Below are positions 9,001 to 12,000 of a stretch of 64,000 nucleotides of DNA, in pieces. The stretch's first letter is position 1. Each line of letters opens with the position of its first letter. Location: IMG/VR virus record IMGVR_UViG_2718217859_000010, one strand, 5' to 3'. The DNA is from a virus (lineage: Duplodnaviria; Heunggongvirae; Uroviricota; Caudoviricetes). Position numbers: made by a program.

Positions 9001-12000
9001 TATTATCAGATCGTGAAAAGCCTGTTTCTCAAGATAGATATTCTTTGAATCTAATGCACGTTTTACAAAATCTTCTGTTTCTTCGTGCGGTGGTTTCTTC
9101 TTATCAAGGGAAAGAAGCCAAGTAAAAATTTCGGGCCGCTCAGGGAACTCTGATTCCTGTGTTTCTTCTTCAACGATGATTTCTGAAACATTCAATATTT
9201 CATTAGATTCGTTTTCTTTCTCAGAAGGATCAGGTAGTGATGACTCTCCAGGGGGAGTAATATGTGCATCTGTGAGAGGGAGCGCATTGTAAATCAAAGA
9301 TGAAATATATGGTTCAGGATGTGGGGATGTTTCTAATAATCCCATCTCTTTAAGATCGTTTATCTTACGTTTAATTGTTGATGCTGAAGACTTAAAAATC
9401 TTAGCTAATGTTTCGTGACTTTCATAACAATTAAGACCATTTTCCTGATAACTAAGAAATCTATAATAAAGAACAATGTGCAATAAATCTAAAACCTTAC
9501 CTTCTGGAAATTCATTAGAGTAAATCTTTGATATATTATCAAACGTGTTATAGTATTTTGTAAAAGTTGGCTGGTTTATCATTAAAAATCTCCTTATAAA
9601 TCACGCTTAATGCGCTACTAAAGTGAATGAGGATCACTTACCCTTTTTTTGTTTGATGTTCTCTGCTGCTTCAGTAATGATTTCTAACATCAAATCACTG
9701 ACCATAATTTGCCTTTTCTTGGCTTCAGCAAATAAAATCTTGAAAATTTCAGGGTCAACGTGTAGGTAAGTGCGTGGAATTGGTTTCTTGGTTTCGCTCA
9801 TAGTTTTCTCCTTCTCCTGTTATTATTCTTTCTCTGCTCCTGCCTTACGCAGTTCATCAATAATTTTTAGTGCATCGTCAAAGCATTTTTCACGCTCTGG
9901 ATAACCACAGCGTCGCGCTGTGTTCCTGTTCATCCTTACTTTAAAACGATTAATCTCACCACGTTTCCAGGCTTCTACTACATCCTGTGGTGTGAAATAT
10001 TTCATTAATTAACCTCCTATTCTATTTGGTTAAAAGAAAAAACACCTTGCAAGCCTTGTTGGGCTTCAAAGTGCGGTGCATTGGTTTAATTACTTAGAGG
10101 ATAAGAATGTTTTCTGTCCCTAATATTACTTTACCACGACTAAAGGCTTTTGTCAACCCCTAGCCATATAAATATTGATCATTTTCAGTAAGTTATGATA
10201 TTTCTTAGCAATTCGTGCTCTTCTGTGTAGTGCTATTCTTCATTATCCGCTAAAACGCTCTAAAACGCGTTCTAACGAAGTTTTGATAAATACAATACAT
10301 TCCCTTATGTAGAGGCTGTTTAGCTCGCCTACGGCTTGATTTAAGCGGTAGAAACTTATTTAACCTTCAACTACTAAAACCATTCTTTCTTTTTTGTTTG
10401 TTGTTGGTTGTTGTCTGTGTCTATGTGCTAACATCGCTAACGCGTAGCACACAAGGTTATTGCACAAGTAAATTTCAATCGTTAGATGGTAGTTAGTTAA
10501 TTATCGTTCTGCGCACAGCGCAAGACTATTTAGCCTTACGCAAGCCGTAGGCTATTTGCACATAGTAGATTACATATTCGTTGTGAGCGGCATTAGCGAA
10601 CATAGATCTACTAACTAACATCAACAAACAAAAAACTATGTGTTATGACAAGCAGTCTAACGACTAACACTCTAACTTGTGCAAGGTTCTGGCGAATGCC
10701 AATAGATTAAGGGATAGTCGAAGACTCCCCTAACGGGTATCCCTATAATTATTCTTATAAAGATAAAAAAGAATTATATTATATAGTTTAATAGTTAGTT
10801 TTATTATTAGTATTATCGTTAGTCTTATTGTGGTTCAAATTGACCTACCCCCTAGCTCACAGTGACCTACCCCCTAGCTCACAGTGACCTACCGTTACAT
10901 CCATTTATCACATAACATCTGTGCAATGATCTTCTAAAAGTGTTTCTTGCTACCAAAATTAAACATCTAAAACAGGCTTAAATTCAATGTAATTGATGAT
11001 TAATCCCTGTGTAATTCCTACGTAAAAATTCAATGAAAAGTAGCTTAAAAGTGCAATGTTAGCTTTCTTCACTTTTACATCACTTTCGCTGCGCCTTGTG
11101 TAATGCGGCATATAGCGCATCACTGCAAAATTGTTGCTCAATAAACGTTCTATCATTTGTCGAACAAGTTTCTTTAATGCAACAAAAAATTATTTTTTCA
11201 AAATAAACACACTATTTAATAGCTTGCTAATTTTACCAAAACGTAACTACATGATTCTCATGCAAGACGTGTAGTGATAAAGCAGGCTAAATCACCACAC
11301 TAAAAACCTTCGAATTTCGTAGTGAAAAAAGTCCTTTACACGCCTAATCAACACGATCAATAATCACTACACACAAATCAACACAGAAGGAAAATGAAAA
11401 TGGCTAATATTGGATATATAAGGGTGTCGACTGTCCAACAAAACACAGACCGTCAATTAGCTGGAGTAACTCTTGATAAAGTCTTTGAAGATAAAGCGTC
11501 AGGCAAGAATACCCAGCGCCCACAGTTTGAGGCAATGATGAACTATGTGCGGGAAGGTGATGTTGTGCATGTTCACAGTATTGATCGCCTTTGCCGTAAT
11601 ACAGCCGACCTACTGGCAACGGTTGAGCAATTAACAGAGCGCGGCGTGTCTGTGCATTTCCATAAAGAAGACTTTAAGACAGGGAAGAACTCTCCCGCAG
11701 GGAATATGATGCTCACAGTGCTTGCAGCAGTGGCACAAATGGAACGTGAAATGATGCTTGAGCGGCAACGTGAGGGGATCGCCGCAGCTAAGGCCGCTGG
11801 ACGTATAGCAAAACGTGGTAATGGAAAAGCAATTGATCGAGCGGGAATTGTTGCCGCTCTCGCGAATGGTGGATCAATTCGGAGCGTAGCAAAAGATTTC
11901 AGTGTCAGCACACAGACGGTGCAACGTATCAAGAAAGAGCAGGAAGCGTAATGCCTCCTGATATTTGAGAATTGTCGCTGCGTGGACCTGACGCCGCTGA

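What the first reader, a model, noticed from the sequence alone, without database searches (positions are those of the whole stretch)
10380..10900. Nested inverted repeats and tandem 22-bp iterons upstream of the serine recombinase
The 1.4-kb non-coding region 10006-11393 contains an outer inverted pair around ttgcacaag (10461-10471 and 10672-10683), an inner inverted pair built on gttagtta/taactaac cores (about 10487-10500 and 10605-10618), and 2.5 tandem copies of a 22-bp unit (10841-10895). A Hin/Gin-type recombinase gene starts at 11400. The layout could be an invertible switch, a replication origin with iterons, or a structured RNA.
Basis: seen in the sequence. Interest (0 to 1): 0.55.

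Follow-up and report, generated by a model that had tools for sequence, protein, structure and literature searches.

The report
Satellite replication origin beside hairpin-rich module
The 22-bp repeats are the initiator-binding sites of the replication origin of a small phage-satellite-like island in E. coli; the nested inverted repeats next to them are a conserved hairpin-forming module of unknown role (probably an RNA read into the origin), not a switch flipped by the neighbouring recombinase.

Summary
The sequence features are real. The window's first 13.3 kb is a satellite-like island at the thrW tRNA site, with relatives in 746 of 5,426 complete E. coli genomes.

**Origin (well supported).** The 22-bp repeats (10841-10893) abut the island's most AT-rich stretch (10738-10827, 16% GC). 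Across 44 related loci, five N-terminal variants of the island's O-like initiator (gene 8956-9582) each go with their own dyad-symmetric repeat family at this position (Fisher p 3e-7 to 2e-3). The intervening module reassorts freely. This is an ordinary iteron-type origin.

**Invertible switch (not supported).**
- None of 351 genomes carrying this module has the 10460-10684 segment inverted.
- The module occurs in islands that lack the recombinase.
- The outer 10-nt arms alone are at chance level.

**Nested repeats (10317-10710), role unresolved.** This is a hairpin-rich, modular block found in two main versions.
- One hairpin shows three compensatory pair changes.
- The second version folds much better on the + strand.
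- There is no Rfam match.
- The overall fold, the transcript and the function are unproven.

My best guess is a structured leader RNA transcribed into the origin. Overall this is a new member of a known kind, with a possibly new RNA motif attached.

The parts
8956..9582 (-). Gene for the O-like replication initiator (208 aa, allele R1). It has a divergent N-terminal winged-helix domain and a conserved C-terminal domain.
   Evidence: Pfam HTH_36 scores 23.6 bits, just under the cut-off of 25. PHROG replication-initiation families match down to E = 5e-8. The N-terminal domain exists in five alleles, and these track the iteron family at the origin.
10032..10073 (-). Terminator-like hairpin plus U-run in the leader of the leftward operon, just upstream of the 60-aa ORF.
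   Evidence: Read directly from the sequence. The stem is conserved in L006 with a different loop. The tool's simple terminator scan did not call it. Inference.
10128..10156 (-). Sigma-70-like promoter for the leftward operon (60 aa, 55 aa, Rep).
   Evidence: TTGACA-17-TAAAGT with an upstream TG, 10 of 12 matches.
10157..10316 (.). Conserved control block ('Block A'). It contains a tandem CTAAAACGC(T/G) x2 at 10250-10269 and a weak candidate rightward promoter: TTGATA at 10283-10288, 17 nt spacer, TATGTA at 10306-10311.
   Evidence: Conserved at 74-100% in all related loci, whereas sequence to the right of about 10330 is mosaic. The promoter is my reading of the sequence; it fails the scan's requirement for T at position 6 of the -10 hexamer.
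10317..10710 (+). Hairpin-rich modular block ('W type') holding all the nested inverted repeats. The + strand is my tentative assignment.
   Evidence: Fold z-scores are -2.3 and -3.0. There are 22 length variants of 417-722 nt, and the window's is the shortest. In other islands it is replaced by a roughly 800-nt 'S type' that shares GCGCACAGCGCA and TGTGAGCGG. No Rfam match.
10425..10450 (+). Hairpin Ha: GTGCTA/TAGCAC with an inner CGC/GCG stem.
   Evidence: 3 of 10 pairs carry compensatory double changes between alleles. 98% of cells are paired, against 25-45% when the partners are slid.
10460..10469 (.). Left arm of the outer inverted pair (TTGCACAAGT).
   Evidence: I25. Part of a 15-nt motif, AAGGTTATTGCACAA, that also occurs at 7096-7110.
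10510..10522 (+). Hairpin Hb, TGCGC-ACA-GCGCA. It is invariant in all W and S loci.
   Evidence: It is present even in loci that were retrieved without requiring it (L002-L006, L030-L033).
10563..10613 (+). Hairpin Hd. Outer stem TAGTAGAT/ATCTACTA, inner stem TTCGTTG/TAGCGAA with two G-U pairs on the + strand, and a loop carrying the conserved UGAGCGG.
   Evidence: Predicted in the MFE and centroid folds. The loop motif is shared with the S type. The outer stem is not fully conserved.
10675..10684 (.). Right arm of the outer inverted pair (ACTTGTGCAA). It lies inside an invariant 31-nt stretch, CTTGTGCAAGGTTCTGGCGAATGCCAATAGA.
   Evidence: Some variants (L008, L027, L028) carry a 34-nt inverted copy of 10676-10709 upstream.
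10738..10827 (.). AT-rich tract, the candidate DNA-unwinding element of the origin.
   Evidence: GC is 15.6%, the lowest 90-bp window in the whole 12.7-kb island. It is conserved to the left of the iterons in every Rep/iteron type.
10835..10893 (+). Iterons of type A: TGACCTACCCCCTAGCTCACAG, two full copies plus a partial third. Each has internal dyad symmetry.
   Evidence: Two or more copies occur in 9 of 13 R1 loci against 1 of 31 other loci, p = 9e-6.
10894..11171 (.). Conserved block of unknown function to the right of the origin, with repeated (C)TGTGTAAT motifs.
   Evidence: Kept in islands without the recombinase (L005, L006) and in the helicase-type island L154.
11172..11951 (+). Separate cargo module: the serine recombinase (CDS 11400-11951), its promoter (11335-11364), and candidate binding sites GTGTAGTGAT at 11269-11278, with inverted copies at 11291-11300 and 11363-11372.
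   Evidence: Homology to the recombinase-less islands stops at 11165-11171. Pfam Resolvase E = 9e-39. Tn3/gamma-delta resolvase 1e-27, Gin 2e-24. Repeats and promoter.

Best explanation
**Context.** Positions 1-13305 of the window are a roughly 12.7-kb satellite-like island integrated at thrW. The 1.4-kb gap is its replication and control region, not a substrate of the recombinase.

**Shown.**
- 10738-10893 is a theta-type, iteron-containing origin.
- It consists of the island's most AT-rich tract followed by 22-bp dyad-symmetric repeats.
- These repeats are the specific binding sites of the N-terminal winged-helix domain of the island's lambda-O-like initiator (gene 8956-9582).
- Initiator N-domains and iteron families are exchanged together among islands.

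**Inferred mechanism.** Initiator dimers bind the iterons, the adjacent AT-rich tract melts, and host or helper helicase and primase are loaded.

**The nested inverted repeats (10317-10710).**
- They belong to a modular, hairpin-rich block that always sits between the divergent promoter block and the AT-rich tract.
- I infer that it is transcribed rightward from about 10318 as a structured non-coding leader that runs into the origin. There is no terminator between them.
- I infer that it acts in cis on origin firing, either by transcriptional activation or priming or by controlling how much transcription reaches the origin.
- That last step is the weakest.

**The serine recombinase** is an independently acquired cargo module.
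For: **Island context.** Integrase, Dit-like, tape-measure-like and major capsid genes, the O-like Rep and a tRNA-Thr attachment end.

**Origin.**
- The repeat is exact and not attributable to chance.
- It abuts the lowest-GC 90 bp of the island.
- Each of five Rep N-terminal alleles has its own dyad-symmetric repeat family at the same position.
- The allele-to-family table is diagonal: R1-itA 9/13, R2-itB 9/12, R3-itC 8/10, R4-itD 4/4, R5-itE 5/5. Fisher p ranges from 3e-7 to 2e-3.
- The association holds although Rep and iterons lie 1.3 kb apart and the W/S module between them reassorts: R1, R2, R3 and R5 each occur with both W and S.
- The iteron type follows the N-terminal domain, not the C-terminal one. 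R2 N-domains joined to either of two C-domains both keep itB.
- A lambda-type origin in the co-resident prophage (iterons inside an HTH_36 O-like gene) has the same CTA-CCCCC-TAG core.

**Hairpin module.**
- Fold z-scores are -2.3 and -3.0.
- Hairpin Ha has 3 compensated pairs of 10.
- In the W type, substitutions in hairpin Hc fall in a bulge and a loop.
- The S type folds at -71 kcal/mol on the + strand against -59.8 on the - strand; alifold gives -65.8 against -51.0.
- In the S type, 5 of 6 internal substitutions at paired positions stay wobble-compatible on the + strand.
- The fixed left boundary follows a conserved -35/-10-like pair.

**Independence from the recombinase:**
Against: **Missing evidence.**
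- There is no direct evidence of replication activity.
- There is no direct evidence of any transcript.

**Weak points for the origin.**
- The HTH_36 hit is just under Pfam's cut-off.
- No solved structure matches Rep by sequence.

**Weak points for the RNA reading.**
- The candidate rightward promoter is weak (TATGTA) and was not called by the scan.
- Strand evidence conflicts. The W type folds equally well on both strands.
- Three singleton variants (L060, L030/L155, L031) give G-U only on the - strand.
- A covariance model built from the S type finds the W type only at E = 0.006-0.13, so a shared global fold is not demonstrated.
- Within-type variation is low (98% identity in S), and the 5-of-6 wobble count is not significant on its own (p about 0.11).
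- Perfect Watson-Crick compensation in hairpin Ha fits single-stranded DNA as well as RNA.

**Exceptions to the iteron pattern.** Some loci carry several iteron families at once, or fewer than two copies of the cognate one.
Confidence: 0.62

Rival explanations
1. The hairpins act at the DNA level as accessory parts of the origin. When the neighbouring AT-rich tract opens, single-stranded hairpins would serve as priming or primosome-assembly signals. Alternatively, the repeated short motifs (CTAAC, TTGCACAAG, GTGAGCG..AGCGAAC) would be binding sites for an island, helper or host protein.
For: - The module always abuts the AT-rich tract.
- Compensation in hairpin Ha is pure Watson-Crick.
- The W type folds equally well on both strands.
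- Short motifs are strongly over-represented and occur in both orientations: CTAAC/GTTAG 9 observed against 0.7 expected.
- AAGGTTATTGCACAA recurs at 7096-7110.
- GTGAGCG..AGCGAAC occurs three times in the opposite orientation in the helicase-type island L154.
- AAGCGG at 10343-10348 recalls the hexamer reported in phiX-type primosome sites. That is from memory only; one search found nothing usable.
Against: - The S type clearly prefers the + strand through G-U pairs, 8 of 63 pairs. This is expected for RNA and less so for DNA.
- The module does not covary with the Rep or iteron type, as an initiator-specific accessory site would.
- No DnaA-box-like sequence was seen by eye.
Confidence: 0.25
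2. The module encodes a trans-acting regulatory RNA unrelated to replication, for example an immunity or anti-helper RNA in the manner of the CI RNA of satellite P4, or a sponge.
For: - There is local structure conservation and a + strand preference in the S type.
- The leftward operon has a terminator-like leader that a regulator could control.
- No ORFs are present.
- Module types W, S and the L154 type vary like specificity determinants.
Against: - No complementarity longer than 11 nt exists to the two co-resident prophages.
- No convincing complementarity exists to the leftward leader; only low-complexity 11-nt pairs were found.
- No terminator defines a discrete RNA.
- There is no Rfam relative.
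Confidence: 0.1
3. The nested inverted repeats bound a DNA segment that the adjacent serine recombinase inverts, making it an invertible switch.
For: A small serine recombinase gene lies 700 bp to the right. Inverted repeats flank a 205-bp segment. Some variants have a longer 34-nt inverted copy.
Against: - A synthetic query with 10460-10684 inverted finds no genome covering the junctions among 351 carriers.
- All 62 fetched loci have the core in the same orientation relative to both flanks.
- The module is present without the recombinase.
- The arms are 10 nt, at chance level, and lack two-fold symmetric half-sites.
- Homology with the recombinase-less islands ends at about 11171, so the recombinase is a separate module.
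Confidence: 0.02
4. The inverted repeats are chance matches in AT-rich, low-complexity DNA with no function. The tandem repeat is a recent slippage duplication.
For: The outer 10-nt pair is expected about once by chance. The 23-nt pair is low-complexity, T/G against A/C. The region is only 35% GC.
Against: - The region is conserved across hundreds of genomes, with compensatory change.
- Fold z-scores are below shuffles on both strands.
- The iteron families covary with the Rep alleles.
Confidence: 0.02

Closest known systems
Phage lambda ori and O protein (lambdoid iteron origins)
   Same: - The initiator has an HTH_36-type N-terminal domain that dictates iteron specificity and a separate C-terminal domain.
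- The iterons are about 19-22 bp with internal dyad symmetry.
- An AT-rich tract lies next to them.
- The iteron core CTA-CCCCC-TAG is shared with the lambdoid prophage in the same window.
   Different: - The origin lies outside the initiator gene, 1.3 kb upstream of it.
- It is separated from the gene by two small ORFs, a promoter block and the hairpin module.
- Only 2.4 repeats are present here.
- No P-like helicase loader is encoded.
- Rep is 208 aa with no sequence match to a solved structure.
Origins of phage-inducible chromosomal islands (SaPI/PICI ori) and iteron plasmids (R6K gamma, pSC101, F, P1)
   Same: Short iterons beside or flanking an AT-rich region, a cognate island-encoded initiator, and a 22-bp period. 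The comparison with these published origins rests on my own knowledge of the literature.
   Different: The PICI initiator is a primase-helicase fusion, whereas here it is an O-like winged-helix protein. This island carries capsid and tail-like genes unlike classical PICIs, and it lacks the terminase and portal genes of capsid-forming PICIs.
Transcription-coupled origins: lambda pR activation, ColE1 RNA II, pAMbeta1
   Same: A long, hairpin-rich non-coding stretch lies immediately upstream of the point where replication would start, with no terminator in between. This is what the module would work like if it is transcribed.
   Different: No transcript, RNase H site or Pol I dependence is shown. 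There is no sequence or Rfam similarity. An initiator and iterons are present, unlike in ColE1.
Hin/Gin/Cin/Pin invertible segments
   Same: A small serine recombinase gene lies next to DNA that contains inverted repeats.
   Different: - There are no 26-bp hix-like sites.
- No orientation polymorphism was found (0 of 351).
- The repeats exist without the recombinase.
- The recombinase scores at least as well against Tn3/gamma-delta resolvases as against Gin.
P4 satellite immunity leader (CI RNA)
   Same: A satellite with a long untranslated structured region beside its early promoters.
   Different: No seqA/seqC-like complementarity was found. There is no homology, and the position relative to the origin differs.

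Membership tests
Iteron-containing theta origin with an O-like initiator | Tandem direct repeats of about 17-22 bp | tested here: met
   22 bp x 2.4 copies, 100% identical. 1-5 copies in relatives.
Iteron-containing theta origin with an O-like initiator | Adjacent AT-rich unwinding region | tested here: met
   10738-10827 has 15.6% GC, the island minimum. It is conserved in all five origin types.
Iteron-containing theta origin with an O-like initiator | Initiator with a DNA-binding winged-helix domain encoded in cis | tested here: inconclusive
   HTH_36 scores 23.6 bits against a cut-off of 25. PHROG replication-initiation families match at E = 5e-8 to 7e-3. There is no PDB sequence match.
Iteron-containing theta origin with an O-like initiator | Iteron sequence specific to the initiator's DNA-binding domain | tested here: met
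   Five N-domain alleles go with five iteron families, p = 3e-7 to 2e-3. The association is independent of the C-domain and of the intervening module.
Iteron-containing theta origin with an O-like initiator | Supports initiator-dependent replication | not testable with these tools
   Needs a plasmid rescue assay.
Hin/Gin-type invertible switch | Both orientations of the segment present in populations or assemblies | tested here: not met
   0 of 351 carrier genomes match the inverted junctions. All fetched loci are colinear.
Hin/Gin-type invertible switch | Two inverted recombination sites of about 26 bp with two-fold symmetric half-sites | tested here: not met
   Only 10 nt are shared, and the flanks are not symmetric.
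Hin/Gin-type invertible switch | Segment and recombinase co-inherited | tested here: not met
   L005, L006 and L154 keep the non-coding region without the serine recombinase. The module boundary is at about 11171.
Hin/Gin-type invertible switch | Fis-dependent enhancer within the recombinase gene | not tested
   Not examined.
Any curated RNA family (Rfam 15) | Covariance-model match at or near the gathering score | tested here: not met
   The best hit in 9900-11500 is 23.7 bits, E = 0.45, to a snoRNA model. Nothing was found for the S-type or L154-type loci.
Structured non-coding RNA (uncatalogued) | Base pairs maintained by compensatory or wobble changes | tested here: inconclusive
   Hairpin Ha has 3 of 10 pairs compensated. 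In the S type, 5 of 6 paired substitutions are wobble-compatible on the + strand. But only two or three lineages are involved, the strand signals conflict, and the W-S model match is weak.
Structured non-coding RNA (uncatalogued) | Own promoter, and a terminator or a defined transcript | tested here: inconclusive
   There is a conserved but weak TTGATA-17-TATGTA and no terminator. No expression data are available.

The most novel reading that the evidence does not exclude
The hairpin-rich block would be a new, modular family of structured RNAs with at least three versions: W, S and the version in the helicase-type island L154. It would be carried by an apparently undescribed group of capsid- and tail-gene-bearing satellite-like islands that sit at tRNA-Thr or tRNA-Gly sites in about 14% of complete E. 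coli genomes. The RNA would be transcribed into the origin and would gate or prime island replication. It would thus couple an RNA element to an O-type iteron origin whose initiator and iteron cassettes are swapped among islands.
Probability: 0.3. Interest if true: 0.6.

Novelty: new member of a known kind. Interest (0 to 1): 0.38.

Why it matters
- **It locates the replication module.** It pins down the origin and initiator of a widespread but uncharacterised E. coli island family.
- **It offers a natural experiment in origin specificity.** Five initiator DNA-binding domains are each matched to their own iteron set and exchanged as functional pairs. This is useful for studying satellite-helper incompatibility and for building orthogonal replicons.
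- **It removes a false lead.** There is no phase-variable switch here.
- **It flags a candidate RNA.** A conserved hairpin module next to the origin is absent from Rfam. If it is an RNA, it would be an uncommon case of an RNA element coupled to an iteron origin in a phage satellite.

Tried and rejected
- **Rfam.** Searched at gathering and permissive thresholds on the window, and on the S-type and L154-type loci. Only chance-level hits were found.
- **tRNA/tmRNA scan.** None in the window.
- **Phage database.** Megablast found nothing. Sensitive blastn found only a 31-bp match, E = 0.01, of 10247-10277 to non-coding DNA of T5-like phages; it is annotated as left terminal repeat only in Pectobacterium phage My1. 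So there is no shared cos or pac region.
- **Lambda cosN.** An exact copy lies in the other prophage. Inside the island there is only a 1-mismatch copy within a coding ORF, with no flanking similarity.
- **Inversion.** Tested directly and rejected.
- **Partner sites for the recombinase downstream.** None found.
- **Complementarity of the module to the co-resident prophages.** At most 11 nt.
- **Covariance model from the S type.** It finds the W type only marginally, so I do not claim a common global fold.
- **Long-range pairing 10327-10338 / 10541-10552 (12 nt perfect).** The left arm is changed without compensation in L002 and L003, so I rejected it as a conserved helix.
- **Protein partner for the W/S type.** The small 60-aa protein and Block A alleles correlate only loosely with the type.
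- **Literature searches.**
  - Searches for the island, for the motifs as text and for primosome-site consensus returned nothing usable.
  - surfaced only a paper on RNA-based origins in mycobacterial prophages, which I did not read.
- **Resemblance of TTGTGAGCGG to the lac operator half-site.** I regard it as coincidence.
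Full report
**1. What is in the sequence**

- **Tandem repeat.** TRF reports a 22-bp unit, TGACCTACCCCCTAGCTCACAG, at 10841-10893, 2.4 copies, 100% matches. The unit occurs twice in the window at up to 3 mismatches, against zero in shuffles.
- **Outer inverted pair.** TTGCACAAGT at 10460-10469 and ACTTGTGCAA at 10675-10684. By my arithmetic a 10-nt perfect pair is expected about once in 1.4 kb, so it is not significant alone.
- **Inner inverted pair.** 10485-10497 and 10610-10622.
A longer 23-nt pair joins 10390-10412 to 10613-10635.
- **More than chance as a set.** 10316-10700 folds better than shuffles on both strands, z = -2.3 and -3.0. 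The pentamer CTAAC/GTTAG occurs 9 times against 0.7 expected.
- **Non-coding.** No ORF above 65 aa and no annotated CDS lies in 10006-11393.

**2. Context**

The first 13.3 kb of the window match an island that lies between paoD/yagP and tRNA-Thr (thrW) in E. coli cM8a at 99.6% identity. A second prophage follows it in the window.

The island encodes the following:
- a tyrosine integrase;
- a Dit-like protein, a tape-measure-like protein and a lambda-E-type major capsid protein;
- several small proteins;
- a 208-aa protein with an HTH_36 domain that matches PHROG replication-initiation families;
- the serine recombinase, after the 1.4-kb gap.

There is no terminase or portal gene, so I call the island satellite-like.

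The gap has relatives in 746 of 5,426 complete E. coli genomes, nearly all chromosomal. Outside Escherichia almost nothing was found.

**3. The gap is a mosaic of modules**

Pairwise comparison with five E. coli loci, 23 IMG/VR loci and the metagenome loci that belong to the family gives these blocks.
- **Left block, 9800 to about 10330.** It is conserved and holds the leftward promoter, a terminator-like leader hairpin at 10032-10073, and a weak rightward promoter-like pair at 10283-10311.
- **Hairpin-rich module.**
  - It comes in a W version, as here. The window's copy is the shortest of 22 length variants (417-722 nt).
  - It also comes in a roughly 800-nt S version.
  - The two share little beyond GCGCACAGCGCA and TGTGAGCGG.
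- **AT-rich tract.**
- **Variable repeat array.**
- **Right block, 10894-11171.** It is conserved.
- **Recombinase module, from about 11172.** Only some islands have it.

Islands L005, L006 and L154 keep the long non-coding region but lack the serine recombinase.

**4. The 22-bp repeats are origin iterons**

- **AT-rich tract.** 10738-10827 has 15.6% GC, the lowest 90-bp window in the island, and it directly precedes the repeats.
- **Rep alleles.** The Rep protein has five very different N-terminal domains, R1 to R5, joined to one of two conserved C-terminal domains.
- **Matching repeat families.** To the right of the AT-rich tract, each Rep type has its own family of dyad-symmetric repeats of about 19-22 bp.

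| Rep type | Repeat family | Sequence |
|---|---|---|
| R1 | itA | GACCTACCCCCTAGCTCAC |
| R2 | itB | ACAGAATTCTGTGGGGG |
| R3 | itC | GGAACTCATTTCC |
| R4 | itD | TATCAGACTTGATAGGGG |
| R5 | itE | GTAACNNNTCGTTAC |

- **Counts.**
  - Counting loci with at least two copies gives a diagonal table: 9/13, 9/12, 8/10, 4/4 and 5/5.
  - Off-diagonal entries are few.
  - Fisher p runs from 3e-7 to 2e-3.
- **Not simple linkage.** The W/S module between Rep and the iterons reassorts. R1, R2, R3 and R5 each occur with both versions.
- **N-domain specificity.** R2 N-domains fused to either C-domain keep itB.

This is the signature of an initiator and its binding sites, as in lambda O. The lambdoid prophage elsewhere in the window has its iterons inside an HTH_36 O-like gene (56371-56475), with the same CTA-CCCCC-TAG core. 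Replication activity itself is inferred, not shown.

**5. It is not an invertible switch**

- I built a query in which 10460-10684 is reverse-complemented between native flanks. Among the 351 genomes that match it, none covers 80% or more of the query. All of them split at the junctions.
- In every fetched locus the core has the same orientation relative to both flanks.
- The arms are short and asymmetric.
- The module exists without the recombinase, and homology with the recombinase-less islands ends at about 11171.
- The recombinase matches Tn3/gamma-delta resolvases (1e-27) slightly better than Gin (2e-24).
- It has its own inverted motifs, GTGTAGTGAT, at 11269-11372, just upstream of its promoter.
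- No partner repeats lie downstream.

**6. What the nested repeats are**

Local structure is under selection.
- **Hairpin 10425-10450.** It differs between alleles by three compensated pairs out of ten. 98% of cells are paired, against 25-45% in slid controls.
- **Hairpin at 10531-10554.** Substitutions fall in its bulge and loop.

The S version points to the + strand.
- It folds at -71 kcal/mol (z = -3.0) on the + strand, against -59.8 (z = -1.8) on the - strand.
- The alignment fold gives -65.8 against -51.0.
- Of six substitutions at internal paired positions, five stay paired through G-U on the + strand.
- In the W version, the inner stem TTCGTTG/TAGCGAA also needs two G-U pairs on the + strand.

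Several observations count against a firm claim.
- The W version folds equally well on both strands.
- Three singleton variants favour the - strand.
- The outer part of one helix is not conserved.
- One 12-nt perfect long-range pair is broken in L002 and L003.
- A covariance model of the S version finds the W version only at E = 0.006-0.13.
- No Rfam family matches any version.
- No paper in the library contains the motifs.

**7. Mechanism I commit to**

- **Origin.** Rep dimers bind the iterons through the N-terminal domain. The AT-rich tract opens, and host or helper functions are recruited. My confidence that this is the origin is about 0.85.
- **Hairpin module.** It is most likely a structured leader transcribed rightward from about 10318 into the origin, acting in cis on origin firing. 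My confidence is about 0.4.
- **Main rival.** The same hairpins or motifs work at the DNA level as origin accessories (0.25).
- **Minor rival.** A trans-acting regulatory RNA (0.1).

**8. Verdict**

The hairpin module and the island family that carries it are uncharacterised and deserve a modest follow-up.

Noticed in passing
window 530-13305: A roughly 12.7-kb island at thrW carries an integrase, Dit-like, tape-measure-like and lambda-E-type capsid genes and an O-like Rep, but no terminase or portal. Relatives sit at tRNA-Thr or tRNA-Gly in 746 of 5,426 complete E. coli genomes. It does not fit the gene sets of P4-like elements, PICIs or capsid-forming PICIs as I know them, and I found no paper on it.
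   Followed up: partly
window 6639-7630: A second unannotated gap of about 1 kb lies inside the island. It shares an exact 15-nt motif, AAGGTTATTGCACAA (7096-7110), with the hairpin module (10453-10467), blast E = 0.001. CTTGTGCAAG also occurs at 6309-6318. All three near-matches to that decamer in the 64-kb window lie in the island.
   Followed up: partly
window 55922-56740, repeats at 56371-56475: The other prophage has a lambda-type origin. Iterons of about 21-24 bp lie inside an HTH_36 O-like gene and share the CTACCCCCTAG core with the island's iterons. The two initiators are not detectably similar (BLASTP E = 0.067). Cross-recognition between helper and island is conceivable but untested.
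   Followed up: partly
window 10032-10156, - strand: The leftward operon has a good sigma-70-like promoter (10156-10128). It is followed by a 12-bp hairpin plus U-run (10073-10032) just before the ribosome-binding site of the 60-aa ORF. This suggests control by termination and antitermination. The stem is conserved in L006 with a different loop.
   Followed up: partly
window 10247-10277: A 31-bp stretch containing the tandem CTAAAACGC repeat matches non-coding DNA of T5-like phages at 93-97% identity, E = 0.01. The match is annotated as left terminal repeat only in Pectobacterium phage My1. The significance is marginal.
   Followed up: no
window 44166-44177 and 6290-6301: An exact lambda cosN (GGGCGGCGACCT) lies in the large prophage. 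A one-mismatch copy lies inside the island's 124-aa ORF, with no flanking similarity.
   Followed up: partly
window 11269-11372: Inverted copies of GTGTAGTGAT, and direct AATCAACAC repeats, lie just upstream of the serine recombinase. They are candidate res-like or autoregulatory sites. A similar GTGTAGTGCTA lies at 10225-10235.
   Followed up: no
L026, L055, L109 (origin regions): Some islands carry compound origins with arrays of three or four different iteron families side by side. Most islands keep single relic copies of foreign iterons, for example GGGGTAGCTCACAGTGACCTACC.
   Followed up: partly
L154 3009-4689 (E. coli N50, tRNA-Gly island): A related island replaces Rep with a DEAD/DEAH-box helicase. 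It still has a 1.7-kb non-coding region with A/C-rich against G/T-rich arms, many CTAAC motifs, and three copies of GTGAGCG..AGCGAAC in the opposite orientation.
   Followed up: partly
window 49736-49953, 20795-20992, 57561-57648, 57673-57749: Four Rfam families match above their gathering scores in the other prophages: STnc100, IS009, C4 antisense RNA and isrK.
   Followed up: no
L001 (cM8a) against the window: The closest genome copy has two IS1A insertions that the window lacks, one of them between Rep and the 55-aa ORF. In the window the island is followed by a second prophage instead of intact thrW-proA.
   Followed up: no
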